Below, piece after piece: positions 2,794 through 37,063 of a stretch of 64,000 bases of DNA. The stretch spans positions 204,766-268,765 of the forward strand of contig JBAQTB010000003.1 in the NCBI GenBank assembly GCA_049296775.1, written 5' to 3'. Position 1 is the stretch's first letter; each line of letters opens with the position of its first letter. The notes below the pieces were generated by a model. It had not been told where the DNA came from and did no database searches. It was given only the letters and a program-made list of their open reading frames with translations. The position numbers were made by a program, and so were the translations under genes. This DNA is from Patescibacteria group bacterium. GTDB lineage: Bacteria > Patescibacteriota > Patescibacteriia > UBA9934.

Positions 2794-2870
2794 TGGTGTG
2801 CCCGGCGCGATTCGAACGTGCGATCTCTTCCTTCGGAGGGAAGCGCTTTATCCAGCTAAGCTACGGGCAC
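2794..2870 (-). tRNA. tRNA-Arg (anticodon CCG), CCA encoded
   Basis: Reverse complement folds as GUGCCCG/CGGGCAC acceptor, D arm GCUUAGCUGGAUAAAGC, anticodon stem CUUCC/GGAAG with loop CUCCGAA, T arm GCACG-UUCGAAU-CGCGC, ACCA 3 prime end; close to E. coli tRNA-Arg(CCG) layout. Confidence 0.85.
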
Positions 2871-2887
2871 ATGACACCAGTGCGGGG

Positions 2888-3322
2888 TTACTTCTGACTT
2901 AAAACGTACATGGCCACACCGCTAGCTACAGAAACATTCAATGACTGCTTCTTAACCATAGGGATTACGGTCTTGCCATCTACTAACGCCAAAGTGTCTT
3001 GATCTATACCTTCGACCTCGTTACCCAGAATGAGAGCGATCTTAGGTACGGCGACAGTTGCAAGGTCGATAGCGTCACTCCCGGTCTCAAGCGCGTATAC
3101 TTGGTAACCAGACTGTTTCACACTGGCGATTACAGTCTCAATCATACCAGCTTCCCACGGCACCAAGTCCTCAGCTCCAAGCGCTACCTTAGCGATCTCT
3201 TTTCTGGGGGGAGTGGCAGTGAAACCGGTCAAATATAATTTTTCGATGCCAAAAGCCGCGGCATTCCGGAAAATTGAGCCGATATTGTGGAGACTCCGGA
3301 TATTGTGAGCAATCACGATCAT
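2888..3322 (-). CDS. SpoU/TrmH-family RNA 2-prime-O-methyltransferase (TrmL-size)
   Basis: HNIRSLHNIGSIFRNAAAFG and LILGNEVEGI motifs of SPOUT methylases; 144 aa. Confidence 0.75.
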   Translation of the reverse strand: MIVIAHNIRSLHNIGSIFRNAAAFGIEKLYLTGFTATPPRKEIAKVALGAEDLVPWEAGMIETVIASVKQSGYQVYALETGSDAIDLATVAVPKIALILGNEVEGIDQDTLALVDGKTVIPMVKKQSLNVSVASGVAMYVLSQK

Positions 3323-20791: not shown

Positions 20792-23293
20792 TTACAAACT
20801 TGGGGGTGGAGGCGGTGGGAGTGGCGGGACGGCGGCCGCAGCCTTGGCGGAATAACCGGCCCTGTCCAGAATATCCTTAGCCACCGTGTCTTTATCTTGG
20901 CCGTATTGCAATCTAGAGATCTGCTTTAAGGCTTCAGCCACTTTCCGGCTACCCTCAGCCGGTGGATAGGCCTTCATGGTAAACGGCTTGGCCTGCGCGT
21001 TATCAATAATCATCTTCACGTTCCAGGTGTACATGTCCGTGTTCATCAAGTCCTGACCAGAGAAAGTTGGCTCAAAAACTTTACCCAGAGTTTCAATATC
21101 TTCAGGACCAACCCGCGCTACCATCATGGTACCCACGTTACCCAAAACCGCGTCTCTGATCTCGGTCTTACCATCTCTCACCAACTGGCCCATGTACTGG
21201 TGAGCTAACACCAAGTTTAAGCGATACTTTCTAGCCTCAGACAAAATTGTCGCAATGGACGGTGTAACAAAGTTTTGGAATTCGTCGATATACAAATAAA
21301 AATCTTTACGTTCACTCTCTGGAATATCAGCCCGAGTAAACGCCGCCATCTGCAACTTAGCCACCAAAATCAAACCAAGCAGTGAAGCGTTAACCTCTCC
21401 CGTTTTACCCTTAGACAAGTTCACCAACAAAATCTTCTGGTTATCCATGATGTCCCGGAAATTGAAAGCAGATTTGGATTGACCAATGATATTCCGCATC
21501 ATTTCATTCTCCACAAACCTACCCACCTTAGACACCAAGTACCCCATCATTTCACTCTTGTGATAATCAGAAGTTTTAGCCATTTCATCTTCCCAGAAAG
21601 ATCTAACTAGTGGATCCTTAACCTTAGCGACCCAAGCTTTTTGGAAAGCATCATCAGAAATCATGCGGGGAATCTCCACAATCGTACCGGGATTATTCAC
21701 GTCCGCCATCAAGGTCAACATGTAGTTACGCATTTGGTGCTCAAACATGGGGCCGATCATCTCGGGCGGAAACAGCATGTAAAAAATACTGATCATTTCC
21801 TGAACCGCAAAATCGCGCATGCTTTCATCTGGCGCTTCCAACATGTTCAAGCCCATGGGACGCTCCAAATCTGACGGATTGAAATACACCACGTCATCTA
21901 AACGCTCTTTGGGAATCAAACCCATTAAGTCATCCGCCAAATCGCCGTGAGGATCAATGACAGCCACGCCTTTACCGTTTCTGATATCCTGAATGGCCAT
22001 GTTCTTAATGAACTCGGTCTTACCGGAACCAGTTTTACCAATGATGTACAAGTGACGACGCCGGTCTGAATCTGTCATGTGAATCTCCGTTTTGCGACCT
22101 CTGTAAACGTTAAAGCCAACATGCAAACCGCTGCTAGGAATGTTAATGGGCGCTGGAGCTGTTCTGGCACTCATCCAGCGGATATTCGGCGTTTCGGAAG
22201 TTGGCAAAGGTAAGTGCCACAAACCCGCTAATTCTTCAGTGTTGAGCAAAACCTTATAGCTCGGATTGAAAGTTCTAAAAATAAAACCTTCCATAATGCC
22301 TTTTCTGGAAGATGGGATGCTCTTTTCTAGCGCATTACCGTACTCATAAATGCTGTACTGACCAAACGCCTGTAAGACGTTGGTTAAGTACATTTGCGCC
22401 TCTTCCGTGCTCGCGGCTGAGGCCACGACTCTAATAGTGGTTTCTAGTCCGGCCTTGCTCAGCTTATTCTCAATGCCTTCTAGCATTTTGGTTTCAGCGG
22501 CTGACAATTTACGTTCCCGCAACTTCTCTTTGGCTTTGTCTGCCTGCTCTTTAGAGGCAAATAAACCTGTGGCCGGCTTGCCAGACTTAGCTTGAGCAAA
22601 ACTCATGCCTTGCTGCATATTCCGCACAATCTTGGTACCCAAAGCTCGCCATCCGTTGGCAGCCGGACGAATGACATACTGAATTGCTACGCCGTCACTC
22701 TCTCCAACTTTTGATAAGGCGTTGGTCAAGGCGTTCAGCGGGTCGCCGTCCATCTCCTTGTAAGTCTTGATCGGCAAGATATGCTCGCGTTTAAACTTAA
22801 TGTAACCAGCCACCACCGTACCAAGCGGTGAAAAAATGTTAAAATCTTCAACTGGCTCTACAAAGGCGTCACTCCACTGCGCATGAATCTGCTGCTCCAC
22901 AAATTCCTGATAACGGCGCGGTACAGTCACGTAAAAAGTCACCAATTTTTCATGCGCCACAATCTCTAGCGCAAAGCTATCCGTTCTCCCCACTAACCAA
23001 GCCCATAAACCGCTATCTGGCTTGAGGCCACCAATGGCTGCAAACAAAGTTTCTGCAATCGCAATCTTCTCTTTCACTCCGGCCGCGTTATCATTCTGAC
23101 GGGTATCTTCTTCATTTTTAAACCGTGGAATAGTAATCCGCAAAGTCGTCAAAACGTCTTCACCGCCGCGGGTATGCGCACGCTTAATCAACACGTTCCG
23201 CAAATACCAAAAAGCAAACAAACAACTGAAGCCAATCAGACCAAACGCAATAACCCAGGGTAACAATTCAGCTAACAAAGCTTGGAACGTCAT
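20792..23293 (-). CDS. VirD4/TraG/TraD-like type IV coupling protein (T4CP) family ATPase with N-terminal TM segment
   Basis: Walker A IIGKTGSGKT, DPHGDL, Walker B LYIDEFQNF, C-terminal RKYRLNLVLAHQYMGQL resembling TraG-D_C domain; 833 aa, proline-rich tail. Confidence 0.6.
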   Translation of the reverse strand: MTFQALLAELLPWVIAFGLIGFSCLFAFWYLRNVLIKRAHTRGGEDVLTTLRITIPRFKNEEDTRQNDNAAGVKEKIAIAETLFAAIGGLKPDSGLWAWLVGRTDSFALEIVAHEKLVTFYVTVPRRYQEFVEQQIHAQWSDAFVEPVEDFNIFSPLGTVVAGYIKFKREHILPIKTYKEMDGDPLNALTNALSKVGESDGVAIQYVIRPAANGWRALGTKIVRNMQQGMSFAQAKSGKPATGLFASKEQADKAKEKLRERKLSAAETKMLEGIENKLSKAGLETTIRVVASAASTEEAQMYLTNVLQAFGQYSIYEYGNALEKSIPSSRKGIMEGFIFRTFNPSYKVLLNTEELAGLWHLPLPTSETPNIRWMSARTAPAPINIPSSGLHVGFNVYRGRKTEIHMTDSDRRRHLYIIGKTGSGKTEFIKNMAIQDIRNGKGVAVIDPHGDLADDLMGLIPKERLDDVVYFNPSDLERPMGLNMLEAPDESMRDFAVQEMISIFYMLFPPEMIGPMFEHQMRNYMLTLMADVNNPGTIVEIPRMISDDAFQKAWVAKVKDPLVRSFWEDEMAKTSDYHKSEMMGYLVSKVGRFVENEMMRNIIGQSKSAFNFRDIMDNQKILLVNLSKGKTGEVNASLLGLILVAKLQMAAFTRADIPESERKDFYLYIDEFQNFVTPSIATILSEARKYRLNLVLAHQYMGQLVRDGKTEIRDAVLGNVGTMMVARVGPEDIETLGKVFEPTFSGQDLMNTDMYTWNVKMIIDNAQAKPFTMKAYPPAEGSRKVAEALKQISRLQYGQDKDTVAKDILDRAGYSAKAAAAVPPLPPPPPPSL

Positions 23294-23845: not shown

Positions 23846-25012
23846 TTAGGTAGCTGGAGTCGCCGCTGGCTTTTTAGCGCCCTGCTTTTTCTTCCACATA
23901 ACTCCCCCACCAATGGCGGCAGCTAACAAGAGAACACACACTACAATCACCGCAATTAAGCTGTGAAGAATCGCGGAAATCACAATCGTCACACAGCTCA
24001 GCACAAACGCTACCGCAAAGGTCACCATACCAATCACGCTGCGGCTAATGGTGCCAAAGATCGGCAAGAAGTCTAGAATGATACTAATTGGTCCAAACAA
24101 GGCACTCAAGCCCATCCACATCATGAGGAAACCAACTAAACGCAAGCCCCAAAGTGAAGCGGTGTACTCAGAATGCAGTTTAGCTACGGCTTGATCATGG
24201 CCACCCAAGAAAGCGCGGTACAAAGTGTCGCCCTTAGGAGTCACGTAAGCGTCAATCGAGCTGCCGTTCAACTTACCAAACAATGTACCTTCAAATGGTA
24301 CGGCTAGGGTGCTGTAACTAACGCGGACATCACCTAACTCAGGTGCTGAGTAAGTGCCCGTGGTGCTGTTGCGTACAAAGATAAAAGTCGTCCCATCCAC
24401 CAAACTAGCGTTAGAGGTGAGTGACAAATTTGCCGCCTGCAAACTCAACTGAGTTGGGGCGGGCGCCTTAGCGGCCTGTGGCGAAAAGTTGTACTGCTCT
24501 AGCATAGCGGTTGGTACCGTCTTGCTGGCATCACTAATATCTGCCATGACGTTAGTGTGGCCTTCTGGTACGTGGAACTTGCTGGAATCAGCAGGAGAAT
24601 TAGTCCACTCTTTCTTGTATGAGTAAGTGGTCTCCGTGGTTGATGATCCACCAGTGTTATTTTTGGTAGTTGACGTTGAAGTTTCTACCCAGGCAAAAAC
24701 CTCGACGTTTCTACTCACGCTATAAAATGGACCTGGCTTCAGAAACAGATCATCACCAATCAAGGTGTCAGCTGTCACCGTACCCGTGGCCGATACCAAA
24801 GTACCGTCAGCACCGGTGTTAGCCGCCACGTTGCTAGCCTCAATCACTACCGCTTTCTTAGCTACGTCTGACATGTCAGCCCGACCTTCATTCCAGTACA
24901 AAACTCCAAACGAGGCTAGGAACATTACGATCCCGAACAAAACTCCTTTAATGGAGTTCATGATGCGTTGACCGTAACTGGTTCTGGTGGTCGTGGTATA
25001 GGTGTCTGCCAT
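23846..25012 (-). CDS. Membrane protein with N-terminal TM, Ser/Thr-rich extracytoplasmic region and C-terminal polytopic region
   Basis: Hydrophobic N-terminal helix, TTKNNTGGSSTTETT low-complexity, 3 C-terminal helices; no domain recognised. Confidence 0.5.
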   Translation of the reverse strand: MADTYTTTTRTSYGQRIMNSIKGVLFGIVMFLASFGVLYWNEGRADMSDVAKKAVVIEASNVAANTGADGTLVSATGTVTADTLIGDDLFLKPGPFYSVSRNVEVFAWVETSTSTTKNNTGGSSTTETTYSYKKEWTNSPADSSKFHVPEGHTNVMADISDASKTVPTAMLEQYNFSPQAAKAPAPTQLSLQAANLSLTSNASLVDGTTFIFVRNSTTGTYSAPELGDVRVSYSTLAVPFEGTLFGKLNGSSIDAYVTPKGDTLYRAFLGGHDQAVAKLHSEYTASLWGLRLVGFLMMWMGLSALFGPISIILDFLPIFGTISRSVIGMVTFAVAFVLSCVTIVISAILHSLIAVIVVCVLLLAAAIGGGVMWKKKQGAKKPAATPAT

Positions 25013-25038: not shown

Positions 25039-26454
25039 TTAACGTGATTCGCGTACCCGTTGACCGTCTGCCGTGTCCTCTACCAGCAGCCCAAGTTCAG
25101 CGAGAGTATCCCGTAAACTATCTGATTTGGCAAAGTCTTTGTCCAGACGCGCCTGTTGACGCTCCGCCAAAAGCGCCTCCGCTTCAGCCGAGATTTTCAC
25201 CGGTCTCGCCACAACATCTTCCAGGGCTAGGCCGAGAATCTCATCAAACTTTAGCAAAGTTGCGGCTTTGACTGCACTACTTAACGATTCATTGCCAACT
25301 AATTTCCAGACTAAAGCTAGACCGGTGGTGGTATCCAGATCCTGACTCAAGTGCTCCAAAAATTCGTCCCAACTAGCTTGATCTAGCTCAGTTGGCTGGT
25401 CCCAGCCCCTAACAGTATCGACAAGCTTATCAAGCGCATTCTGCGCCCCCTGAACCGCCTCCCAAGTGAAATTGAGTTTAGATTTGTAATTAGCGCCTAA
25501 GACAAAGTAACGGAAGGCTAAAGCAGAAATACCTTTCGCGGCCAGATCATCCAAACTGTAAGTATTGTTCAACGACTTACTCATCTTGCCACCGTCAATA
25601 AGTAAAAATTCGTTGTGCAACCAGTAATTAGCTTCAAGCACTCCTCTAGCCGCTTCTGCTTGAGCGATTTCATTTTCATGGTGTACCGCAATATGGTCGA
25701 TACCGCCGGTATGCACATCAAACGGTAAACCTAAATATTTTTCCGCCATGGCTGAACATTCAATATGCCAGCCCGGGAAGCCCTTGCCCCAAGGAGAGTT
25801 CCACTCCATGTGGCGTCGTGCAACGACGCCATCCTGAGCGCCGTCGAAGGGTCTCTCACTTGGCGAAAACTTCCACAAGGCAAAATCGCTCGCCTGACGT
25901 TTATCGCCAATCTCTACTCTGGCTCCAGCTGCCTTCTCCGCCATACTCTGACCGGACAGGCGGCCGTAACCCGGCTGCTTGGACGTATCAAAATAAACTC
26001 CGTCGGCAATTTGATAGGTCAAACCCTGATCCTCAATAGCTTTAATCATCGCGATCTGTTCGGCGATATGATCCGTGGCTTTAGGCATGACGGTAGGAGT
26101 CAAAGCGTTTAAGCGCTTTAAATCCGCCATAAATAACTGCGTGTAAGTCTCAGCCACTTCCCAAGCGGTCTTACCTTCACGCTCCGCACCCTTCTCAAGT
26201 TTATCTTGACCTTCATCAGCGTCGCTCACTAAGTGACCGACATCGGTGATGTTCATCACCTGAGTAACTTGATAACCCGATTGCTCAAACACTCTCCGCA
26301 ACGTGTCTGAAAACACGTAAGCTCTAAGATTGCCAATTGAAGCGCGGTCATACACAGTTGGCCCGCAAGTATACAAACCCACGTGCCCAGGCTTGATGGC
26401 CTTAAATTCCTGCTCCTGCCTGCCTAAAGTATTGAAAAGTTTAATTGATGACAT
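25039..26454 (-). CDS. cysS: Cysteine--tRNA ligase
   Basis: HIGH-type CGPTVYDRASIGNLRAYV, KMSKSLNN motif, Zn-binding Cys residues. Confidence 0.92.
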   Translation of the reverse strand: MSSIKLFNTLGRQEQEFKAIKPGHVGLYTCGPTVYDRASIGNLRAYVFSDTLRRVFEQSGYQVTQVMNITDVGHLVSDADEGQDKLEKGAEREGKTAWEVAETYTQLFMADLKRLNALTPTVMPKATDHIAEQIAMIKAIEDQGLTYQIADGVYFDTSKQPGYGRLSGQSMAEKAAGARVEIGDKRQASDFALWKFSPSERPFDGAQDGVVARRHMEWNSPWGKGFPGWHIECSAMAEKYLGLPFDVHTGGIDHIAVHHENEIAQAEAARGVLEANYWLHNEFLLIDGGKMSKSLNNTYSLDDLAAKGISALAFRYFVLGANYKSKLNFTWEAVQGAQNALDKLVDTVRGWDQPTELDQASWDEFLEHLSQDLDTTTGLALVWKLVGNESLSSAVKAATLLKFDEILGLALEDVVARPVKISAEAEALLAERQQARLDKDFAKSDSLRDTLAELGLLVEDTADGQRVRESR

Positions 26455-26865: not shown

Positions 26866-26905
26866 ACAACAAAACAGCCGCGCCTTATAAATTAAGGTGC
26901 GGCTG
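26866..26905 (-). terminator. Hairpin + U-run (minus strand) overlapping the stop codon of the anti-sigma-like gene
   Basis: plus strand aacaaaaCAGCCGCgccttataaattaaggtGCGGCTG; 7-bp stem, 17-nt loop. Confidence 0.45.
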
Positions 26906-27524
26906 TGGGGGTGTCTTGGAGTCTATCTAGGCGTAAGTTCATGGCGCGTAAGTATTCGCTCTTGTCAGGCTCTGGCAGGTCTGAAGCTGCAATCCGGTTT
27001 CTCACCGACTCCAGAGCAAGTAAGATCTGATGTTTGAGTCTGGTCTTGATGAGAGTCTTGCCAACTTCATCATTTTTCAAAGCTTTGAATTCAGTCACAG
27101 CGATGTTTAAACTCTCGGTCAAAGCTACGACCATCTCCGGCGTTAAAGTCTGCTCACGCTTGAGCTGATGATTTAATTCCTTCACGCGGCGTTCTAATTG
27201 TTTGGCACGGAATTTAGCGTGTGACTCTGGCGTGTGTTTAAAGTCACCCTGGACTTCCTCAAGGGCCCGCTTCACAGGGTACAGAACATTACCCTCACTC
27301 ACGGCTGGGGCGCTATACGCATACGTACTCAAACCCACAAAACTTCCGACCACCAAAACCAATGACGCAAAAGCAAACCTCAAACTAGGCGCATAGGTCC
27401 GGGTCTGAACTGGACGTAGCTCGGCCTCAAGCACCGCCAAACGCTCTAATAAAGCCTGTTTAAACACAGGATCAGGGCGACTAGCCTTCCGCCAACGAGC
27501 TAATTTTGCTTTTAAGAAAATCAT
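26892..27524 (-). CDS. Putative membrane-anchored anti-sigma factor (by position, co-transcribed with ECF sigma)
   Basis: Start overlaps sigma gene stop (ATGA), single TM helix, coiled-coil C-terminal part; assignment by context only. Confidence 0.45.
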   Translation of the reverse strand: MIFLKAKLARWRKASRPDPVFKQALLERLAVLEAELRPVQTRTYAPSLRFAFASLVLVVGSFVGLSTYAYSAPAVSEGNVLYPVKRALEEVQGDFKHTPESHAKFRAKQLERRVKELNHQLKREQTLTPEMVVALTESLNIAVTEFKALKNDEVGKTLIKTRLKHQILLALESVRNRIAASDLPEPDKSEYLRAMNLRLDRLQDTPTAAP

Positions 27525-28012
27525 ACGTGTTTCTTCATTAGCGCCTTTAACTTCTGCATGGCTCTATGTGTTTCTACCCGGACTGACCCAGTTTGTTTCT
27601 CTAGACTATCGGCGATTTCCTTATATCTGTAGCCCAGCAAGTACTTTTTCTCGATTAACGTGCGTTCATTCGGCTTAAGTTCTGCCATGGCGGCCCGCAA
27701 ATGCTCTAGGTCATCGGCAACCTCAACCGTATGTTTGCCGTCCTCTCCCACCAGGGTGAAAGCCACGTCGTCAACATCGACCGCCTCCTTCTTGTCCCGC
27801 CAGTAGTTAATCACTTTGTTTCTAGCAATGGTCATGATCCAAGCCTTCTCTCCGCGTGTTGGATCAAAATCAGCAAAGGCCTTAAAGGCTGAAACAAAGA
27901 TATCTGCCGTTAGATCTTCAGCAACCGCCTTATTTTGGGATACTCTAAAATATACGAAGCGATAAATCGCATCAAAATGTTTGGTATAGAAAGACGAAAA
28001 GTCACTAGCCAT
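27521..28012 (-). CDS. RNA polymerase ECF-type sigma-70 family factor
   Basis: Region 2 (FDAIYRFVYFRV...) and region 4 helix-turn-helix (YKEIADSLEKQTGSVRVETHRAMQKLK). Confidence 0.85.
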   Translation of the reverse strand: MASDFSSFYTKHFDAIYRFVYFRVSQNKAVAEDLTADIFVSAFKAFADFDPTRGEKAWIMTIARNKVINYWRDKKEAVDVDDVAFTLVGEDGKHTVEVADDLEHLRAAMAELKPNERTLIEKKYLLGYRYKEIADSLEKQTGSVRVETHRAMQKLKALMKKHV

Positions 28013-28851: not shown

Positions 28852-29352
28852 TTAGGCGTTGTCACCTCTAAAGATCGCCATCATGATGACGGGGGCTAAT
28901 AGCCAGGCTAAGCGGGCTAATGGACTGACGAATAACTGTCTGACGTAAATGCTTAAAGTCTCGGGATCTACAAAAGAACCAATGATTACAATGATCAATC
29001 CGGCCAAGACTGCGGCAAACACAAAACGTTCTAAACCGGTGGGAATAATGTACGGCTCAAAAAAGCGGTTTCGCCTAAAGACTAAACCGAAAATGATCGT
29101 GGCCACCCCAAAGACTAAAATCTTAAAGTGTTCAGCTGACAAACTAGCTAGAAAACTCAAACTCCCGACATCCGGAAATAAATGAGCAACCAGACCAGCC
29201 AAGACCACCGCCACGAATGACACGATGATCGAATTCCGTCCCAAGGTAAACGCAAAAGCAACACTCGCAATAAAAATACTCGCGGCCACCAAGGCATCCC
29301 AAACCACTAAAGCTTGCGCCGCTACCAACCACGCCATCACTGACTGAAGCAT
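28852..29352 (-). CDS. Small polytopic membrane protein
   Basis: 4-5 hydrophobic helices, 166 aa. Confidence 0.5.
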   Translation of the reverse strand: MLQSVMAWLVAAQALVVWDALVAASIFIASVAFAFTLGRNSIIVSFVAVVLAGLVAHLFPDVGSLSFLASLSAEHFKILVFGVATIIFGLVFRRNRFFEPYIIPTGLERFVFAAVLAGLIIVIIGSFVDPETLSIYVRQLFVSPLARLAWLLAPVIMMAIFRGDNA

Positions 29353-29369: not shown

Positions 29370-30395
29370 CTAATCTTCACGTAGTTTTAAATCTTCTAAT
29401 AGTTGCTTAGTGTGCTTATCTAGCTTGGTAGGTGTCACGACTTGAATGCTGACAATTTGATCGCCGCGGCCGCGGTTACTTGGTACGCCTTTGCCGCGCA
29501 AACGTAATTCATCCCCACTTTGCGTGCCAGGTGGGATCTTCATACTGACTAGGCCGTCAACAGTATCCACTTGCACAGTGTCACCCAAGGCCGCCTGCGT
29601 AAAGCCGATTTTCTTCTTGAAATAAATTGTGGTGCCATCACGAACAAAACGCTGATCCGGTGAAACTCTAAGACGCAAATACAAATCACCCGGCTCGCCC
29701 TGCGTGCCGATGCTTTCACCTTCACCCCGCACGCGCATTTGCATGCCGTCTTCAACACCGGCTGGAATGTCGACGCGTAAGGTTTTGCGTCCGCGGGCAA
29801 TACCCTGACCCTGACATTCATGACATTTAGTCTCAGGAATTTCACCGCGACCATCACACGGCTGACAAGCGACCCGCATTTGCACCGCGCCTAAAATGGT
29901 GCGCTGTGTCGCCATGGTAAAGCCTTTTCCTTTGCAAGTATCGCAAGTTTTTAGCTTGGTACCTGGCTCTGCACCCTGACCACCGCAACGGGCACAAGTA
30001 TTTGTCTTGTTCAAATTAACTTCCTTAGCCACGCCAAACACGGACTCCTTGAAACTTAAATACATCTCCATCTCCACATCTTGACCCTTAGGCGTTCTGG
30101 TCCGGCCACCACCACCAAAAAAACTTCCAAAAATGTCACCCAAGTCACCAAAAGCGTTAGGATCAAAACCACCCGGGAAACCCTGGGGACCCTCCGCTGA
30201 ACCAAACTGATCGTAACGGGCACGCTTGTCAGTATCTGACAAAGCTTGGTAAGCCTCATTAATCTCTTTAAATTTGCTCTCCTCTCCCCCTTTATCCGGG
30301 TGATGCTCATGCGCTAATTTACGAAACGCAGCCTTAATCTCAGCTTGCGAAGCTGTCTTAGACACGCCTAAAGTTTGATAAAAATCCCTTGCCAC
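29370..30395 (-). CDS. dnaJ: Chaperone DnaJ
   Basis: J domain with HPD motif, Gly/Phe-rich linker, four CxxCxGxG zinc-finger repeats. Confidence 0.9.
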   Translation of the reverse strand: MARDFYQTLGVSKTASQAEIKAAFRKLAHEHHPDKGGEESKFKEINEAYQALSDTDKRARYDQFGSAEGPQGFPGGFDPNAFGDLGDIFGSFFGGGGRTRTPKGQDVEMEMYLSFKESVFGVAKEVNLNKTNTCARCGGQGAEPGTKLKTCDTCKGKGFTMATQRTILGAVQMRVACQPCDGRGEIPETKCHECQGQGIARGRKTLRVDIPAGVEDGMQMRVRGEGESIGTQGEPGDLYLRLRVSPDQRFVRDGTTIYFKKKIGFTQAALGDTVQVDTVDGLVSMKIPPGTQSGDELRLRGKGVPSNRGRGDQIVSIQVVTPTKLDKHTKQLLEDLKLRED

Positions 30396-30406
30396 AAAAA
30401 TACAGA

Positions 30407-30613
30407 TTATCCCTTGATCTCCTCCGCGTCGATATCGATCACCTCTTTGTCAGTGGCTGATTTAGACTTTGAGTTTCTGCCTTTACGTCCGAAGATAAGT
30501 CGCCCCAATGGCAAGACGATGAGCGTAAAAAATCCCGTTAAGGCGGCCCACCGTAATTTCCACTGGAGCAACTTACTAAAAACAGACATAAACTTTAAGT
30601 TTACTTGCAACAC
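30407..30613 (-). CDS. Small single-pass membrane protein (hypothetical)
   Basis: 68 aa, one hydrophobic helix, basic then acidic tail; packed between dnaJ and Cys-rich ORF. Confidence 0.35.
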   Translation of the reverse strand: MLQVNLKFMSVFSKLLQWKLRWAALTGFFTLIVLPLGRLIFGRKGRNSKSKSATDKEVIDIDAEEIKG

Positions 30614-30624
30614 CCGTCTTCATC

Positions 30625-30813
30625 TCAACCCTCTGTTGAACAGGTCTTACCTTCTGCACCCGGCTTGCAACAAGCTCCGGAACCGTCCGCGCAACACTCC
30701 TCCTTGTGAGCATCTGAACCAGCCTGGTCATGATCGCAACAAGCGTCAGCAGCTGGAGTGGCAGTTTTTGACTTGGCGCTGAACATGGCTTTGAGGGAGT
30801 CGATAAATGACAT
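30625..30813 (-). CDS. Small Cys-rich peptide (three CC pairs + one Cys), putative metal-binding
   Basis: 62 aa: ...ACCDHDQAGSDAHKEECCADGSGACCKPGAEGKTC...; 10-nt gaps to flanking ORFs, same strand as dnaK/dnaJ. Confidence 0.4.
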   Translation of the reverse strand: MSFIDSLKAMFSAKSKTATPAADACCDHDQAGSDAHKEECCADGSGACCKPGAEGKTCSTEG

Positions 30814-30822
30814 AATCGTTAG

Positions 30823-31212
30823 TTAAGCGGCCTTAGTTGCGGCCTTTTCCTCTACGGTCCAAGTACACAGTTTAATCGGCTCTCCCCCGTCTACTCGGCC
30901 CCAAACACTATACTCCCCCGCCCCAGGAACTTGCACGCCCCCAATCCGGATAACAATATTGGAACCTGGACCTTTGACGGTGTTCTTAAACAGCTGACCT
31001 TTGTCAATCAAAGTATTCGAGCTATCCGTTAAGTAGATCTCCATGTTGCCCTCTGGTGGCAAACCGACAATGCGCGTGGCAAAGAAGCCTCGCAACACAA
31101 TCGGAGAGCCAGCTGGATACGCTGTACGATCAAAAACGTGCATGTAACTCTGCATGCCATTCACTGACATCGTCGCGAACTCACAAAACAATGCGTATTC
31201 TTTGGTGATCAT
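30823..31212 (-). CDS. Hypothetical protein
   Basis: 129 aa, between dnaK and dnaJ; no domain recognised. Confidence 0.5.
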   Translation of the reverse strand: MITKEYALFCEFATMSVNGMQSYMHVFDRTAYPAGSPIVLRGFFATRIVGLPPEGNMEIYLTDSSNTLIDKGQLFKNTVKGPGSNIVIRIGGVQVPGAGEYSVWGRVDGGEPIKLCTWTVEEKAATKAA

Positions 31213-31250: not shown

Positions 31251-33155
<1,905 letters not shown>

Positions 33156-33713
33156 TTATTTAGTAATAATTTTCTCATTCACGATCACCTTAGCGGGGCG
33201 AAGGACGACATCACCGAGTTTCCAGCCTTTAATGACTTCATCGAGCACTTCGCCGTCTGGCTTGGACTCGTCTTGCTTTGAGCCACCAGATTCGTGGAGG
33301 TTTGGATCAAACTTCTGACCGACAGTGGCAATGGGCTCAACGCCCATGCCCTTCAAGGCCTCGGCAAATTGGCGGTCAATGTGACCAATGCCTTGCACCC
33401 AGGTGTCAAAAGTTTTTTTGAACTCGTCTGAGCAGCCTTCCAAACTAGGCACATGCTTCATGACGTAGCCAAAGTTATCGATCACCGGCAACAGCTCTTC
33501 AGCGAGTGATGAACGCACACGACGGCGATCAGTATCGCGAGTTTGTGCATTCATCTTTTGCAAATTCTCGTAATCAGCTAGCGCACGTTTCCAACCTGCG
33601 AGGTACTCGGCGCACTGAGCCTGAAGATCTGATGGGACAGATTCGACGGATGGGTCAGGTGGGACGGATGCCTGAGTAGAGTCTTCAGTCTTGAGTTTTT
33701 CATCTTCTGTCAT
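33156..33713 (-). CDS. grpE: Nucleotide exchange factor GrpE
   Basis: Position between hrcA and dnaK, size 185 aa, GrpE C-terminal beta-domain-like region. Confidence 0.8.
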   Translation of the reverse strand: MTEDEKLKTEDSTQASVPPDPSVESVPSDLQAQCAEYLAGWKRALADYENLQKMNAQTRDTDRRRVRSSLAEELLPVIDNFGYVMKHVPSLEGCSDEFKKTFDTWVQGIGHIDRQFAEALKGMGVEPIATVGQKFDPNLHESGGSKQDESKPDGEVLDEVIKGWKLGDVVLRPAKVIVNEKIITK

Positions 33714-34450
33714 AGCGAGAGTAAAGGTTGTTCAAGAACTTTTTTAGCTTGGGTCAATAAGGCGATGTTGCGGTTGTAATCCATTCTGAGTGGCCCCACA
33801 ATTCCGAGCACACCTTCCACGCCCTGACCGAGATCGCTTTTAACGACTACCGAGGCCATTTCATTGCCGAGCGGATTGTCATCACCCAGCAGGACTGTGA
33901 CTTCATGCGTAGCTGTGCCGAGGATGTCCCTAAAGGCAGCATCGAATCTTTCCAAACTTTCTGCCAAGAGCAGAATGGCACTGCCGGACTGGAACTCCGG
34001 CTTACGCAAGAGATTTGCCAAACCAAGGGTGGTACTCCAAGGTCGATTAGTCGCTAGCATGACCGCCTCTCCAGATTCTCTAGCCACCGCCTGACCCATC
34101 TGCGCCAAGCGCTCTTCTGGTGTGGGTGCCCGAGGTGCCCGTCTGACCGTAATATTGATACGAATGTTTTTGGCCGCCGGCCGAGCCGCCTTCTGTGCCT
34201 GACCTTCTTTAATGTACAGACGATAAGCCTTTTCTGTAGGCACACGTCCGGCCGAAGTATATGGTTGAGCAATGAGCTGTAACTCTTCCAGCACTGCCAT
34301 GTCATTACGCACAGTCGCCGACGAACAGGTTAAGTTATACCGCTCACACAGCTGCTTAGAGCTAACTGGCTCAGCGGTACGGATATACTCATCCACGATG
34401 AGTTTTAAGATTTGTGCCTGACGGGTATTCATAAACGTAATGGAAACCAC
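33710..34450 (-). CDS. hrcA: Heat-inducible transcription repressor HrcA (short form)
   Basis: N-terminal winged-helix region RQAQILKLIVDEYIRTAEPVSSKQL; CIRCE operator 18 bp upstream. Confidence 0.8.
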   Translation of the reverse strand: MVSITFMNTRQAQILKLIVDEYIRTAEPVSSKQLCERYNLTCSSATVRNDMAVLEELQLIAQPYTSAGRVPTEKAYRLYIKEGQAQKAARPAAKNIRINITVRRAPRAPTPEERLAQMGQAVARESGEAVMLATNRPWSTTLGLANLLRKPEFQSGSAILLLAESLERFDAAFRDILGTATHEVTVLLGDDNPLGNEMASVVVKSDLGQGVEGVLGIVGPLRMDYNRNIALLTQAKKVLEQPLLSL

Positions 34451-34467: not shown

Positions 34468-34494
34468 ATTAGCAGTCTGTATTATAGACTGCTA
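34468..34494 (-). promoter_or_regulatory. CIRCE operator (TTAGCAGTC-N9-GACTGCTAA) with -10 TATAAT in its spacer; -35 TTGACA at 34502-34507
   Basis: Matches CIRCE consensus TTAGCACTC-N9-GAGTGCTAA in 16/18 arm positions; minus-strand reading gives TTGACA-16-TATAAT. Confidence 0.8.
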
Positions 34495-34515
34495 ATTCTA
34501 GGTGTCAAGAGGTTA

Positions 34516-35361
34516 TTAAGCGACCTCTCGCCCGCTCTCTTCGCCAGCACCGAAAACCTCAGTATCGGCTTGTTCGTAGGCTTTCACTTTGGCATCCTCC
34601 TCAGCAAGCTGTTTAGCCTCTAATTCTTCGGGACTAGCATCTGGCTCAACGATATCAGGTCCCGCAGTCAATTCAGCTACCCCTGACATAAACTTCTCGG
34701 CTAGTTGTACAACCTCTTGCTGAATATTAGCATCGAACGTATTACGCTCGGCTCGGTCGCTGAACTCAGGCTCCAGAGACCTCTCATATTGTTTCCTATC
34801 TTTTTTGGCCTGTATTTTTTTTATTGTTTCAAAGTGTTCAAAAAGCTCCCGTCGTAACTCATCACCCTTGGCCATGTCCTTAGTTGTCTTGAGTTGATTG
34901 AGTAAATCATTCGCCGTATCCAGCTGAACACGAAATGCAGCATTTTCAAGACCATGCTCGAACTCACCGCGCTCCATTCTCTTCTGAAGACCGGGAACTT
35001 TCTCATGAGTGGAAGGCTGAGCAGGATTCACGCCACGTGTTTCTGCTTTCTCAGCCGCCTTAGTAAGTAAAGTATCGAGCTTGCCGGACATAGCAGAACC
35101 GGTGGTTTCACCATCTGTATCATCTAACAAAGCTTTAAGTTCAGCTCTTAGCTGATCAGCCTTGGCGACATCCTGCTCTTTCACGATCGCAGCATTTAGA
35201 GCCTTAGCTTGTTCCATTTGTGCCTTAGAATCAAAGCCGAGTTCTTCATATTCGTTGTCCTCAACGGTGGAAACCACAACTTCAGCGTCCTCGCTGGCCG
35301 AATCTTCGGCTAACTCTGGGACGTCGGAATCTGGCATACCTCGACGTTGTTCAATATTCAT
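34516..35361 (-). CDS. Hypothetical acidic coiled-coil protein
   Basis: 281 aa, E/D/K/A rich, no domain recognised. Confidence 0.5.
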   Translation of the reverse strand: MNIEQRRGMPDSDVPELAEDSASEDAEVVVSTVEDNEYEELGFDSKAQMEQAKALNAAIVKEQDVAKADQLRAELKALLDDTDGETTGSAMSGKLDTLLTKAAEKAETRGVNPAQPSTHEKVPGLQKRMERGEFEHGLENAAFRVQLDTANDLLNQLKTTKDMAKGDELRRELFEHFETIKKIQAKKDRKQYERSLEPEFSDRAERNTFDANIQQEVVQLAEKFMSGVAELTAGPDIVEPDASPEELEAKQLAEEDAKVKAYEQADTEVFGAGEESGREVA

Positions 35362-35386: not shown

Positions 35387-37063
35387 TTAGAATTCAGAGT
35401 GAGTTAGGTTTTGTAAATCCTTCTTGCCAAGATTACCCCACTGTGGCCGGAGTGTCTTCTTCTTTTTCAACAGCTGCGCAAAATGTTCGCCGCCCAGGAT
35501 CGAGGGAACAATGACAAAGGTGGCACCGAGCGCATACGCTTTAACAGCATCTTCAGAAGATTTGACGGTGAGAATGAATGAGCCTTTAGCCTTACGATTA
35601 CGGGCAAAGTCCATAATGTCTTCATTCACCGCCATGTCAGGAATGGCGGAAATGACCATTTTGGCTTTATCAGCTTTAATGAACTTGAGCAGATCTTCAT
35701 TACCGACATCGCCATAAATGGCTCTGACGCCGTTATGTTCCAGGGCTTCAATAGCAGCCGGATTATAATCGACTACCAAATAGTTATCTGTGATTTCTTG
35801 GATCATGGGTAGCACTTTCTTGCCCATTCTGTCGTAGCCTAACATGACGATTTCTGGAGCCACATCCGGTGCATCATCGGCGTCATTTTTCTGATGCTGC
35901 AAAAATGGTAACAACTTGGTCAGTAAATCGAAAATCTTTTCGTTGTAAGAGATCAGGTAAGAGGAACCAGCAATGGTCACCAAGCCCACTACAGTAGTTA
36001 GAGCCAAATTTGATGCGGGAATAACACCCATAGTCACACCACCCGCAATTACAATAAACGAAAATTCGCTGATCTGAGCCACGGTGGTACCCACCAAAAA
36101 ACCAGTTCTGGGGTGATAACCAAGGACACGCATGAGCACCAGCACAATCAACGGGTTGCCGATCAGGATAAATAAACTAAAGACTAAACTTGGTAACCAG
36201 AGTTGGGAAAGATCTCCAGCAGTCAGATGCGTGCCAAGGACGATAAAGAAAATAACCAGGAAAAAGTCACGTAAAACTCTGACCTTGGCTTCAATTTCAT
36301 GCTGGAAACCACTACCGGCCAAACTAATACCCGCCAACAAGGCACCAATTTCGATGCCAAAACCTAGCATGTGCAAGGCGGACGCAATGGCAAAGCACCA
36401 GGCTAGGGCTAAAACAAAGAGTAACTCCGTCGACTTGGCAGCGTACCGGAACAGATGCGGGATGAGGAACTTGGCAACTAAGAATAGGACTCCGATCACG
36501 AGCGCGACCTTGCCAAGAGACACGGTCAAAATCGCTGACCAGCTCCCGCCGTCCTGCCAAGCGGCCAAGAAAATCAAAATGAGCATGGCGATCAGGTCTT
36601 GGACAATCAACATGCCGATAGCAATACGTCCGTACAATCTCTCCAAATCTTCTTTGTCGGTCAATAGCTTGACGATGATGATGGTGGAAGAGAAGGCAAA
36701 GGCCACTGACAAAAAACCGGCTGTAATGTAATCGAAACCTAAAGCCACACCAATCAGCCAACCGATAATGGAAGTAAACAGCACCTGACCAAAACCAATC
36801 ACGAGCGCCACCTTGCCGACCTCCGCGATGTTGCGCCAGTTAAGATTCAAGCCCACGATAAACAACAGCAAAGCAATGCCAATTGAGGACAATGTCTCAA
36901 ACAGATCCACCGATTGCACCAGACCCAACAAGCCAGGACCGGCGATAATACCCGTCAGAATGTAAGCAATAATCAGCGGCTGACGTAAGCGGTGCGCCAA
37001 CAATGACAACAAACTAGCTGTCAAAATTACAATAGAAATCTCTAAAAAAAGTTCATTCAGCAT
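35387..37063 (-). CDS. CPA2-family cation:proton antiporter (Kef-like) with C-terminal RCK/TrkA-N domain
   Basis: 12 TM helices followed by Rossmann-type MLGYDRMGKKVLPMI RCK domain. Confidence 0.8.
   Translation of the reverse strand: MLNELFLEISIVILTASLLSLLAHRLRQPLIIAYILTGIIAGPGLLGLVQSVDLFETLSSIGIALLLFIVGLNLNWRNIAEVGKVALVIGFGQVLFTSIIGWLIGVALGFDYITAGFLSVAFAFSSTIIIVKLLTDKEDLERLYGRIAIGMLIVQDLIAMLILIFLAAWQDGGSWSAILTVSLGKVALVIGVLFLVAKFLIPHLFRYAAKSTELLFVLALAWCFAIASALHMLGFGIEIGALLAGISLAGSGFQHEIEAKVRVLRDFFLVIFFIVLGTHLTAGDLSQLWLPSLVFSLFILIGNPLIVLVLMRVLGYHPRTGFLVGTTVAQISEFSFIVIAGGVTMGVIPASNLALTTVVGLVTIAGSSYLISYNEKIFDLLTKLLPFLQHQKNDADDAPDVAPEIVMLGYDRMGKKVLPMIQEITDNYLVVDYNPAAIEALEHNGVRAIYGDVGNEDLLKFIKADKAKMVISAIPDMAVNEDIMDFARNRKAKGSFILTVKSSEDAVKAYALGATFVIVPSILGGEHFAQLLKKKKTLRPQWGNLGKKDLQNLTHSEF

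What the first reader, a model, noticed from the sequence alone, without database searches (positions are those of the whole stretch)
30407..31212. Three small ORFs inserted between dnaK and dnaJ
The usual hrcA-grpE-dnaK-dnaJ arrangement is interrupted here. ORFs of 129 aa, 62 aa and 68 aa sit on the same strand with ~10-nt gaps, between the dnaK stop (31251) and the dnaJ start (30395). They would be co-transcribed under CIRCE/HrcA control. The 129-aa protein has no recognisable domain. The 68-aa protein has one TM helix.
Basis: seen in the sequence. Interest (0 to 1): 0.55.

Follow-up and report, generated by a model that had tools for sequence, protein, structure and literature searches.

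The report
Conserved extra genes inside dnaK operon
Three small genes between the heat-shock chaperone genes dnaK and dnaJ of an uncultured Patescibacteria (Uhrbacteria) genome are real and conserved, and the largest belongs to an unstudied protein family (DUF6941) that sits next to chaperone genes in several lineages, which makes it a candidate new helper of the Hsp70 machine.

Summary
On the minus strand the order is CIRCE/promoter, hrcA, grpE, dnaK, ORF129, ORF62, ORF68, dnaJ, ORF166, with gaps of 9-38 nt and no internal terminator. All three ORFs are real genes. They recur in the same order in 24 other Uhrbacteria-type loci: dnaK lies upstream in 22 of 22 and dnaJ downstream in 23 of 23. 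dN/dS is 0.03-0.13 for ORF129, 0.10-0.17 for ORF62 and 0.00-0.12 for ORF68, against 0.03-0.04 for dnaJ.

ORF129 is a divergent member of DUF6941 (hhalign probability 98%, E 2.9e-13), with a predicted all-beta sandwich fold. Canonical DUF6941 genes from other lineages also lie between dnaK and dnaJ (7 of 13 loci) or directly after groEL (1 of 13). No paper in the library mentions the family.

ORF62 is a Cys/His/acidic-rich peptide. ORF68 is really 60 aa, starting at ATG 30589. It is a small membrane protein with a conserved acidic C-terminal motif. That motif resembles the conserved DnaK C-terminal motif strongly in one subclade but only marginally in the window's own subclade.

Best reading: a lineage-specific accessory cassette of the HrcA-controlled DnaK system, with DUF6941 as a candidate holdase or co-chaperone. 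Function is inferred, not shown.

The parts
34469..34508 (-). Sigma-70-type promoter (TTGACA-16-TATAAT, 34508-34481) overlapping a CIRCE operator (34469-34495) upstream of hrcA
   Evidence: CIRCE matches with 2 mismatches, against 0.01 expected by chance. The promoter matches 12 of 12 positions. An equivalent CIRCE is present in 20 related loci.
33710..34450 (-). hrcA (heat-shock repressor)
   Evidence: ORF. Homologous genes in related loci carry Pfam HrcA.
33156..33713 (-). grpE
   Evidence: ORF. Related loci carry Pfam GrpE at this position.
31251..33152 (-). dnaK (633 aa). Its C-terminal tail carries [10 protein letters not shown].
   Evidence: It is 79-92% identical to DnaK in related loci.
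30823..31212 (-). ORF129: a divergent DUF6941 protein, soluble, with a predicted 8-strand beta sandwich
   Evidence: Pfam DUF6941 scores 21.1 bits, below the cut-off of 27. hhalign against canonical DUF6941 gives 98% probability, E 2.9e-13. The AF2 model has pLDDT 80.8. There are 35 homologues at 54-100% identity. dN/dS is 0.03-0.13.
30625..30813 (-). ORF62: a Cys/His/Asp/Glu-rich small protein (7 Cys in 62 aa) with an amphipathic N-terminus (MSFIDSLKAMF)
   Evidence: A positional homologue is present in 22 of 23 loci, with 5-11 Cys each. dN/dS is 0.10-0.17. No Pfam, NCBIfam, PHROGs or PADLOC hit.
30407..30589 (-). ORF68, corrected to 60 aa (the mechanical GTG start is at 30613). A small membrane protein: amphipathic N-terminus, hydrophobic segment with invariant Pro, basic linker, acidic C-terminal motif VIDIDAEEIKG.
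   Evidence: The family alignment covers 21 sequences, with an invariant Pro and (V/I)(I/V)D motif. Maximum Kyte-Doolittle mean is 1.89. dN/dS is 0.00-0.12, and one pair is 55/55 aa identical at dS 0.92.
29370..30395 (-). dnaJ (class A: J domain, CXXCXGXG zinc finger, C-terminal domains)
28852..29352 (-). ORF166: a multi-pass membrane protein of unknown family, 17 nt after dnaJ, conserved at this position in many relatives
   Evidence: It is 31-62% identical at the same position in 12 of the 24 related loci; in two of these (L019, L020) it lies about 3 kb beyond dnaJ.

Best explanation
The three ORFs are genuine protein-coding genes. Together they form a lineage-specific accessory cassette inside the HrcA/CIRCE-controlled operon hrcA-grpE-dnaK-ORF129-ORF62-ORF68-dnaJ(-ORF166) of a Candidatus Uhrbacteria (Patescibacteria) genome.

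Shown: HrcA's operator overlaps the only strong promoter. The genes are packed 9-38 nt apart with no internal terminator. All three genes are conserved in order and under purifying selection across the clade.

Inferred: heat or proteotoxic stress releases HrcA, and one polycistronic mRNA then yields the three proteins together with DnaK and DnaJ.

ORF129 is a divergent member of DUF6941, an uncharacterised soluble beta-sandwich family. Members are wedged between dnaK and dnaJ, often with overlapping or abutting reading frames, in several other small-genome lineages, and one lies directly after groEL. I therefore take ORF129 to be a heat-shock-regulon accessory chaperone factor. The most likely form is an ATP-independent binder (holdase or adaptor) of hydrophobic or non-native segments that works with DnaK and DnaJ.

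ORF62 is read as a metal- or redox-buffering Cys-rich peptide with an amphipathic N-terminus that may bind the membrane. ORF68 is read as a tiny membrane anchor that exposes a conserved acidic tail to the cytoplasm. These two are Uhrbacteria-specific additions and may place part of the system at the membrane. All functional statements about the three proteins are inference from context, composition and predicted fold.
For: - Gene reality: the cassette is present in 24 further distinct loci. dnaK lies upstream in 22 of 22 and dnaJ downstream in 23 of 23. The Cys-rich ORF is present in 22 of 23 and the TM ORF in 22 of 23.
- Selection: dN/dS is 0.03-0.13, 0.10-0.17 and 0.00-0.12 for the three ORFs, against 0.03-0.04 for dnaJ. 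ORF129 diverges about as slowly as DnaJ, 52-83% against 59-81% identity.
- Regulation: CIRCE plus a perfect promoter in the window, and CIRCE in 20 loci.
- Family: ORF129 against canonical DUF6941 gives hhalign 98%, E 2.9e-13. The reciprocal profile search finds canonical members.
- Link to chaperone genes beyond this clade: canonical DUF6941 lies between dnaK and dnaJ in L028, L029-31, L034, L035/36, L037, L038 and L039, with hrcA-grpE upstream where that flank is visible. It lies directly after groEL in L040/41.
- Fold: all-beta sandwich, with pLDDT 80.8 for ORF129 and 89.6 for P0041. The best Foldseek E-values are to hydrophobic-pocket 'solubilising factors' UNC119 and PDE6delta, and RhoGDI appears among the ORF129 hits.
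- Precedent: small operon-encoded Hsp70-system partners exist, namely Thermus DafA (PMC3727329) and CbpM (PMC8215388).
Against: - There is no expression, interaction or activity data. Everything comes from metagenome assemblies.
- Five of 13 canonical DUF6941 loci are not next to chaperone genes. Their neighbours are ATP synthase, Ni-SOD, a DNA methylase, a PIN protein and an M23 peptidase. The family is therefore not strictly tied to DnaK.
- The fold matches are weak and generic. TM-scores are 0.4-0.57, and carbohydrate-binding and FnIII-like domains score as well as the lipid binders.
- No similarity to HSP20 or any known co-chaperone was detected.
- The dnaK-dnaJ interval in this clade also accepts clearly unrelated passenger genes: FG-GAP, NYN, HAD, tRNA_edit and GIY-YIG. 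Position alone is therefore not proof of function.
Confidence: 0.5

Rival explanations
1. Passenger stress genes. The three proteins have functions independent of DnaK and DnaJ, for example metal or redox buffering by ORF62, membrane protection by ORF68, and an unrelated binding role for ORF129. They sit in the operon only because it provides a strong stress-inducible promoter.
For: The same interval hosts obviously unrelated inserts in relatives: FG-GAP, NYN, HAD hydrolase, tRNA_edit and GIY-YIG. Five of 13 canonical DUF6941 loci are away from chaperone genes, and one of those is next to Ni-SOD, another stress gene. No homology to known co-chaperones was found.
Against: The variable inserts come and go, whereas ORF129 is kept in every locus. 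DUF6941 proteins only 20-30% identical to ORF129 occupy the same dnaK-dnaJ slot in other lineages, with overlapping or abutting frames. In L028, dnaK and DUF6941 overlap by 14 nt and the gap from DUF6941 to dnaJ is 2 nt. That is hard to explain without selection for coupled expression.
Confidence: 0.3
2. DnaK-tail reader and decoy model. DUF6941 recognises the acidic C-terminal tail of DnaK, as TPR co-chaperones read EEVD in eukaryotes. ORF68 is a membrane-anchored mimic of the canonical DnaK tail that recruits, or competes for, whatever binds that tail.
For: A PSSM built only from ORF68-family tails picks out E. coli DnaK residues 626-634 (VVDAEFEEV) at 19 bits. The next best window in DnaK scores 6.5 bits. 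None of 119,593 background windows reach 19 bits, and only 2-4 of 20,000 composition-preserving shuffles do. The L011 tail PVVDADFSEVKEEKK compares with E. coli DVVDAEFEEVKDKK. The clade's own DnaK tail has lost the aliphatic positions ([10 protein letters not shown]; 0.5-3.4 bits). DUF6941 is encoded right after dnaK. The function of the conserved DnaK tail is still debated (PMC7918210, PMC8215388).
Against: The signal depends on three loci. Without L011, L012 and L018 the score falls to 9.1 bits, which 5.5% of shuffles reach. For the window's own ORF68 (VIDIDAEEIKG) the resemblance is therefore marginal. I noticed the similarity by eye before testing it. Canonical DUF6941 lineages have a different DnaK tail (EGEVVD/E) and no ORF68.
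Confidence: 0.12
3. The small ORFs (62 and 68 aa) are chance reading frames in a long dnaK-dnaJ spacer, or the region is a recent mobile insertion.
For: They are short. There is no Shine-Dalgarno sequence and no database family hit.
Against: dnaK itself also lacks a Shine-Dalgarno sequence, so its absence says nothing. The frames, lengths and motifs are conserved in 22 of 23 loci while synonymous sites are near saturation. dN/dS is 0.00-0.17. Independent gene callers call these ORFs in other assemblies. There are no repeats, integrase genes, or phage or defence hits. ORF129 identity tracks DnaK and DnaJ identity, which indicates vertical descent.
Confidence: 0.03

Closest known systems
Pfam DUF6941 (PF22091), family of unknown function
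   Same: ORF129 aligns over 113 columns with canonical members (hhalign 98%, E 2.9e-13). It has the same length (about 125-140 aa), the same conserved N-terminal L-C-(D/E)-(F/Y)-A...S...G...S...F-D-R pattern and the G-E-Y motif, and the same all-beta prediction.
   Different: The window protein scores below Pfam's gathering cut-off (21.1 against 27 bits). The Uhrbacteria branch lacks four residues near the C-terminus and has its own invariant residues. Nothing is published on the family; no paper mentions DUF6941 or PF22091.
Thermus thermophilus DafA (DnaK-DnaJ assembly factor)
   Same: It is a small protein encoded in the dnaK operon that works with DnaK and DnaJ, forming a DnaK3-DnaJ3-DafA3 complex from which substrate displaces DafA (PMC3727329). 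It is the closest precedent for a lineage-specific, operon-encoded Hsp70-system partner.
   Different: From memory, DafA is about 78 aa and lies downstream of dnaJ. No sequence was available to compare. ORF129 is a 129-aa beta sandwich located between dnaK and dnaJ. No evidence of complex formation exists here.
CbpM, inhibitor of the J-protein CbpA
   Same: A small protein encoded in the same operon as a J-domain protein, which modulates that protein's interaction with DnaK (PMC8215388).
   Different: CbpM is restricted to gamma-proteobacteria and binds the J domain of CbpA. None of the three ORFs shows a family match to it.
Small heat-shock proteins (HSP20/alpha-crystallin), which feed clients to DnaK
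   Same: A beta-sandwich protein of similar size under heat-shock control. From memory, Thermotoga maritima encodes a small HSP next to dnaK.
   Different: There is no HSP20 Pfam hit even at E<=1. No sHSP or p23 structure appears among the top 50 fold matches of either model.
GDI-like solubilising factors (UNC119, PDE6delta, RhoGDI)
   Same: These give the best Foldseek E-values for the canonical DUF6941 model (5e-5 to 4e-4), and RhoGDI appears among the ORF129 hits. They are Ig-like sandwiches that shield hydrophobic groups in a pocket.
   Different: TM-scores are only 0.42-0.52 and sequence identity 7-12%. They are eukaryotic lipid-cargo carriers. Carbohydrate-binding and FnIII-like domains match equally well, so this is fold resemblance only.
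Conserved C-terminal motif of bacterial DnaK (E. coli ...DVVDAEFEEVKDKK)
   Same: The ORF68-family tails share the pattern V-(I/V)-D-(A/V)-x-(A/F)-x-E-(I/V)-K at the extreme C-terminus, followed by Lys. The match is statistically strong for the family PSSM.
   Different: ORF68 is a 60-aa membrane protein, not an Hsp70. The similarity is carried mainly by three relatives and is marginal for the window's own subclade.
Bacterial metallothioneins (SmtA/BmtA type)
   Same: ORF62 and its homologues are about 50-80 aa with 5-11 Cys plus His, in CC, CxC and CDCGHDH clusters.
   Different: There is no Pfam or NCBIfam metallothionein hit. The sequence is poorly conserved outside the Cys clusters. It has an amphipathic N-terminal segment that metallothioneins lack. 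Metal binding is untested.

Membership tests
DUF6941 (PF22091) | Pfam HMM score at or above the gathering cut-off (27 bits) | tested here: not met
   ORF129 scores 21.1 bits, E 4e-4. Clade relatives score 23.9-25.3 bits in this Pfam copy, although several carry a precomputed PF22091.3 label.
DUF6941 (PF22091) | Homology to canonical members at profile level | tested here: met
   hhalign of A1 against A4 (17 canonical members) gives 98% probability, E 2.9e-13, over 113 columns. The A1 profile retrieves canonical members scoring 56-82 bits to Pfam.
DUF6941 (PF22091) | Single-domain, all-beta protein of about 125-140 aa | tested here: met
   AF2 models: ORF129 has 8 strands and pLDDT 80.8. P0041 has 11 strands and pLDDT 89.6.
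HrcA/CIRCE regulon | CIRCE inverted repeat (TTAGCACTC-N9-GAGTGCTAA) at the operon promoter | tested here: met
   Located at 34469-34495 with 2 mismatches, against 0.01 expected by chance. It overlaps a 12-of-12 sigma-70 promoter and is conserved in 20 loci.
HrcA/CIRCE regulon | Heat-inducible co-transcription of the three ORFs with dnaK and dnaJ | not testable with these tools
   Only sequence is available: gaps of 9-38 nt and no convincing internal terminator or promoter.
Small heat-shock proteins (HSP20) | Alpha-crystallin domain detectable by Pfam HSP20 or by fold | tested here: not met
   No HSP20 hit at E<=1. No sHSP among the top 50 Foldseek PDB matches of either model.
DafA-like DnaK-DnaJ assembly factor | Forms a stoichiometric complex with DnaK and DnaJ | not testable with these tools
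No DafA sequence was available for comparison.
Bacterial metallothionein | Match to a metallothionein family model | tested here: not met
   ORF62 has no Pfam or NCBIfam hit at E<=1.
Bacterial metallothionein | High Cys (and His) content in clustered CC/CxC motifs | tested here: met
   ORF62 has 7 Cys and 2 His in 62 aa. The 21 homologues have 5-11 Cys and 0-8 His.
DnaK C-terminal tail motif (as a motif, not a family) | Significant match of the ORF68 tail to the canonical VVDAEFEEV motif | tested here: inconclusive
   With all tails the score is 19-19.6 bits, which 2-4 of 20,000 shuffles reach. Without L011, L012 and L018 it is 9.1 bits, which 1092 of 20,000 shuffles reach.
Phage or defence-system protein | Match to PHROGs or PADLOC models | tested here: not met
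   No hits for any of the three ORFs.

The most novel reading that the evidence does not exclude
DUF6941 is a previously unrecognised co-chaperone or holdase of the bacterial Hsp70 system, concentrated in Patescibacteria. In Uhrbacteria it works with a membrane-anchored peptide (ORF68) whose cytoplasmic tail mimics the conserved C-terminal motif of DnaK. That would tether or compete for the still-unknown partner of the DnaK tail. The Cys-rich ORF62 would supply or buffer metal or redox equivalents for the zinc-finger DnaJ encoded immediately downstream.
Probability: 0.15. Interest if true: 0.8.

Novelty: new variant of a known kind. Interest (0 to 1): 0.62.

Why it matters
The DnaK/DnaJ/GrpE machine is among the best-studied protein systems, and its bacterial partner list is thought to be nearly complete. 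This finding shows a conserved, unstudied protein family kept in the slot between dnaK and dnaJ, or after groEL, across deeply diverged small-genome bacteria. Its reading frames are coupled to theirs, and it is as strongly constrained as DnaJ. That makes it a concrete candidate for a new accessory factor.

Patescibacteria have minimal proteomes and many are thought to live attached to host cells (my own knowledge, not tested here), so genes they keep in a core operon are likely to matter. The ORF68 tail also offers a natural handle on an open question, namely what the conserved C-terminal motif of bacterial DnaK actually binds (PMC7918210, PMC8215388).

All the proteins are small and soluble or easily synthesised. 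The hypotheses can therefore be tested directly in vitro with E. coli or cognate DnaK and DnaJ.

Tried and rejected
- Chance ORFs or a non-coding spacer: rejected by conservation and dN/dS.
- Shine-Dalgarno support: uninformative, because no gene of the operon, including dnaK, has one.
- sHSP/HSP20 identity for ORF129: no sequence or fold support.
- Phage or defence origin: no PHROGs or PADLOC hits.
- NCBIfam: no hits.
- PDB sequence-profile search with the DUF6941 alignment: nothing below E 0.06.
- ORF62 as a RiPP precursor, or as a Cys-sensing leader peptide for the downstream cysS: considered and rejected by inspection, without a formal test. No modifying enzyme is seen nearby. dnaJ and up to four other genes separate ORF62 from cysS. 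The ORF is under protein-level selection.
- ORF68 as TatA-like: rejected by inspection. The family lacks a TM helix at the extreme N-terminus and the FGxxKLP hinge (TatA features are from memory).
- Giant proteins hit by the ORF129 profile (P0038 with PATR repeats, P0040 with fn3): repeat-domain noise, not relatives.
- One protein-database search (P0039) yielded only 3 hits and little information.
- Literature searches for DUF6941, PF22091, or dnaK/dnaJ operons in Patescibacteria returned nothing. The 'between dnaK and dnaJ' search returned only unrelated uses of the phrase.
Full report
**Observation.** The region reads exactly as described. On the minus strand lie dnaK (33152-31251, 633 aa), ORF129 (31212-30823), ORF62 (30813-30625), ORF68 (30613-30407) and dnaJ (30395-29370, GTG start, 341 aa). 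dnaJ carries J, CXXCXGXG and C-terminal domains. Upstream are grpE (33713-33156) and hrcA (34450-33710). The gaps are 38, 9, 11 and 11 nt. A further membrane-protein gene, ORF166 (29352-28852), follows dnaJ after 17 nt.

**Source organism.** The exact ORF129 sequence is on record as a hypothetical protein of a 'Patescibacteria group bacterium' MAG, on a 383-kb contig. Related loci are mostly labelled Candidatus Uhrbacteria.

**Regulation.** One CIRCE-type inverted repeat occurs in the 64-kb window (TTAGCAGTC-N9-GACTGCTAA, 2 mismatches, 0.01 expected by chance). It lies at 34469-34495, 19 nt upstream of hrcA. It overlaps a perfect TTGACA-16-TATAAT promoter at 34508-34481.

The scan found no convincing promoter or terminator between dnaK and dnaJ. 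Counts did not exceed those in shuffled sequence. A single CIRCE, with the -10 box inside its spacer, occupies the same place in 20 related loci. Four of these come from outside the Uhrbacteria clade. HrcA control of the operon is therefore well supported by sequence. Co-transcription of the inserted ORFs is inferred.

**Are the three ORFs genes?** ORF129 has 35 database homologues at 54-100% identity. A scan of species-representative genomes with the family alignment returned 22 loci, and look-ups by exact protein added more. After removing duplicates there are 24 loci besides the window.
- Wherever the flank is present, dnaK lies upstream (22 of 22) and dnaJ downstream (23 of 23), on the same strand.
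- Between the ORF129 homologue and dnaJ, 22 of 23 loci have a Cys-rich ORF of 52-82 aa.
- Likewise, 22 of 23 have a 49-62-aa ORF with one hydrophobic segment.
- L009 lacks the Cys-rich ORF and L005/L025 lacks the hydrophobic one.

In pairs where synonymous sites are not saturated, Nei-Gojobori dN/dS is 0.03-0.13 for ORF129, 0.10-0.17 for the Cys-rich ORF, 0.00-0.12 for the membrane ORF and 0.03-0.04 for dnaJ. In one pair the membrane protein is 55/55 aa identical at dS 0.92. All three are therefore real, constrained genes.

Homologues show that ORF68 begins at the ATG at 30589, giving 60 aa. No gene of the operon, dnaK included, has a Shine-Dalgarno sequence, so its absence says nothing.

**ORF129 identity.** Pfam gives a sub-threshold DUF6941 match (21.1 bits, cut-off 27). 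A profile of the clade, searched against 1.84 billion representative proteins, found only three strong clusters plus a few canonical DUF6941 proteins. Profile-profile comparison with 17 canonical members gives 98% probability, E 2.9e-13, over 113 columns. ORF129 is thus a divergent DUF6941 protein.

AlphaFold2 predicts an eight-strand beta sandwich (pLDDT 80.8, pTM 0.74). The highly conserved N-terminal 20 residues are the least confident part. A canonical member gives a better model (pLDDT 89.6, pTM 0.81).

Foldseek against the PDB finds only Ig-like sandwiches. For the canonical model, the best E-values (5e-5 to 4e-4, TM 0.42-0.52) are to UNC119 and PDE6delta. RhoGDI appears among the ORF129 hits. 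Wzt carbohydrate-binding and GH3 FnIII-like domains match as well or better by TM-score. I treat the 'hydrophobic-pocket solubilising factor' resemblance as a lead only.

Other searches were negative:
- No PDB sequence relative.
- No NCBIfam, PHROGs or PADLOC hit.
- No paper mentioning DUF6941 or PF22091.

**The key contextual result.** Canonical DUF6941 genes, only 20-30% identical to ORF129, were located in 13 distinct loci outside the Uhrbacteria clade.
- Seven lie between dnaK and a class-B dnaJ. Where the flank is visible, the order is hrcA-grpE-dnaK-DUF6941-dnaJ. Frames often overlap or abut: in L028, dnaK and DUF6941 overlap by 14 nt and DUF6941 ends 2 nt before dnaJ.
- One lies directly after groEL (Cpn60, 178 bits).
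- Five lie elsewhere: after ATP synthase epsilon, beside Ni-SOD, or near a DNA methylase, a PIN protein or an M23 peptidase.

None of these loci has the Cys-rich or membrane ORFs, so those two are Uhrbacteria-specific additions. The recurring, deeply conserved placement of DUF6941 inside chaperone operons is the main reason to propose a role in the heat-shock chaperone system. It is also the most interesting outcome of this check.

**ORF62 and ORF68.** ORF62 homologues share three features:
- an amphipathic N-terminus (MSFIDSLKAMF or MKILDRIKLMF);
- in one subclade, a conserved PDEKRPDDMTSKK segment;
- C-terminal clusters of Cys, with or without His (CC, CDC, CDCGHDH), totalling 5-11 Cys.

This composition suggests metal or redox chemistry, but no metallothionein model matches.

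ORF68 homologues share a basic amphipathic N-terminus, a hydrophobic stretch with an invariant Pro followed by Arg, a Lys/Arg-rich linker, and a C-terminal V-(I/V)-D-(V/A)-x-(A/F/V)-x-(E/K)-(I/V/K) motif.

This motif resembles the conserved C-terminal motif of DnaK. E. coli DnaK ends ...DDDVVDAEFEEVKDKK, and L011 ORF68 ends PVVDADFSEVKEEKK.
- A PSSM built only from ORF68-family tails scores E. coli VVDAEFEEV at 19 bits.
- The next best window in DnaK scores 6.5 bits.
- None of 119,593 background windows reach 19 bits, and only 2-4 of 20,000 composition-preserving shuffles do.
- However, when the three most DnaK-like relatives are left out, the score drops to 9.1 bits, which 5.5% of shuffles reach.

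For the window's own protein (VIDIDAEEIKG) the resemblance is therefore marginal. The clade's own DnaK tails carry an invariant AKDAEFTE(K)K and score only 0.5-3.4 bits. Reviews state that the conserved DnaK tail enhances chaperone function, perhaps as an auxiliary client-binding site, and that a parallel to eukaryotic EEVD is unresolved (PMC7918210; PMC8215388). I keep the tail-mimic idea as a low-probability, high-interest reading.

**Explanation and rivals.**
- Best supported (confidence 0.5): a lineage-specific accessory cassette of the HrcA-controlled DnaK operon. DUF6941 acts as a heat-shock accessory factor (holdase or adaptor) made together with DnaK and DnaJ. Two tiny proteins, one membrane-embedded (ORF68) and one possibly membrane-associated (ORF62), add metal or redox buffering and a membrane anchor.
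- Main rival (0.3): the proteins are independent stress proteins borrowing a strong promoter. The interval does accept unrelated inserts in relatives: FG-GAP, NYN, HAD, tRNA_edit and GIY-YIG. However, those inserts vary between loci while ORF129 is kept in every one.
- The tail reader/decoy model is given 0.12.
- Chance ORFs or a mobile insertion are given 0.03.

Known precedents for small operon-encoded modulators of Hsp70 systems are Thermus DafA (PMC3727329) and CbpM (PMC8215388). Neither is related by any test I could run.

**Limits.**
- All data come from metagenome assemblies, with no expression or interaction evidence.

**Verdict.** The case is more interesting than first stated. ORF129 belongs to a family whose association with dnaK-dnaJ and groEL recurs across lineages and has not been described in the literature searched.

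Noticed in passing
window 28852-29352 (-): ORF166 is a multi-pass membrane protein with no Pfam or PADLOC hit. It follows dnaJ by 17 nt and is 31-62% identical at the same position in 12 of the 24 related loci (in L019 and L020 it lies about 3 kb beyond dnaJ). It may be a fourth lineage-specific member of the operon.
   Followed up: partly
L006:2951-5269; L014:6739-7245; L019:7059-7604; L022:7214-7858; L010:5366-5869; L048:4564-4947; L047:1450-2136: The dnaK operon of this clade is an insertion hot spot. Different species carry different extra genes within it: a 772-aa FG-GAP protein, NYN-domain proteins, HAD hydrolases, a YbaK-like tRNA_edit protein, a GIY-YIG protein, or a Trypsin_2 protease (between grpE and dnaK).
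   Followed up: partly
L001-L027, L047: DnaK C-termini; L028-L039: DnaK C-termini: Uhrbacteria DnaK tails carry a nearly invariant KDAEFTE core (usually AKDAEFTE(K)K; L017 reads KDAEFQD) in place of the canonical VVDAEFEEV. DnaK in the other DUF6941-carrying lineages ends in (V)EGEVV(D/E), which is reminiscent of eukaryotic EEVD.
   Followed up: partly
window 30625-30813 and 30407-30589; L006:2555-2743 and 2746-2916: In the window's subclade, the N-termini of the Cys-rich and the membrane small proteins resemble each other (MSF/L..SLKAMF against MSV/LFS..KWKLRW; both start MSLLSS in L006). This could mean a shared amphipathic targeting helix or an old duplication.
   Followed up: no
L016-L019, L022, L024, L026: Several third-party-annotated MAGs titled 'uncultured Gammaproteobacteria bacterium' carry this Uhrbacteria-type locus, with DnaK 79-84% identical to the window's in the six loci where it is visible (L024 lacks that flank). 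Their taxonomic labels are probably wrong.
   Followed up: no
window 27521-28012 and 26892-27524 (-): An ECF-type sigma factor (Sigma70_r2/r4_2) overlaps by 4 nt a downstream DUF5667 protein, probably its anti-sigma factor. The pair lies between the chaperone operon and cysS (25039-26454). The same pair follows the operon in L001/L002.
   Followed up: partly
window 20792-23293 and 23846-25012 (-): An 833-aa TrwB/TraG-like type IV coupling-protein homologue and a TMEM43-family protein lie next to the clamp-loader gene dnaX (19118-20728). A similar coupling-protein gene lies near the operon in L003/L004.
   Followed up: no
window 34516-35361 (-): A 281-aa, very acidic protein with no Pfam domain lies between the Na+/H+ exchanger-TrkA_N gene (35387-37063) and the hrcA promoter. 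This slot holds different unannotated ORFs in related loci.
   Followed up: no
P0028 (158 aa, ENA contig of 3.6 kb): One ORF129 homologue is called as a longer protein with a Toprim_C_rpt match in its C-terminal part. This may be a gene-calling or assembly artefact, or a fusion.
   Followed up: no
L022:5583-5847: Downstream of the conserved part of dnaK this locus has a masked run (N) followed by a GFGWRASI-type tandem peptide repeat in frame. This is likely assembly noise or a repeat insertion in the DnaK tail region.
   Followed up: no
window 30375-30782 (+): A 135-aa antisense ORF overlaps ORF68 and ORF62. The selection pattern supports the minus-strand frames, so this ORF is most likely spurious.
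   Followed up: partly
L045:2353-2799 and 2820-3239: In one unrelated contig a DUF6941 gene directly follows a nickel superoxide dismutase gene. This is another stress-protein neighbourhood for the family.
   Followed up: partly
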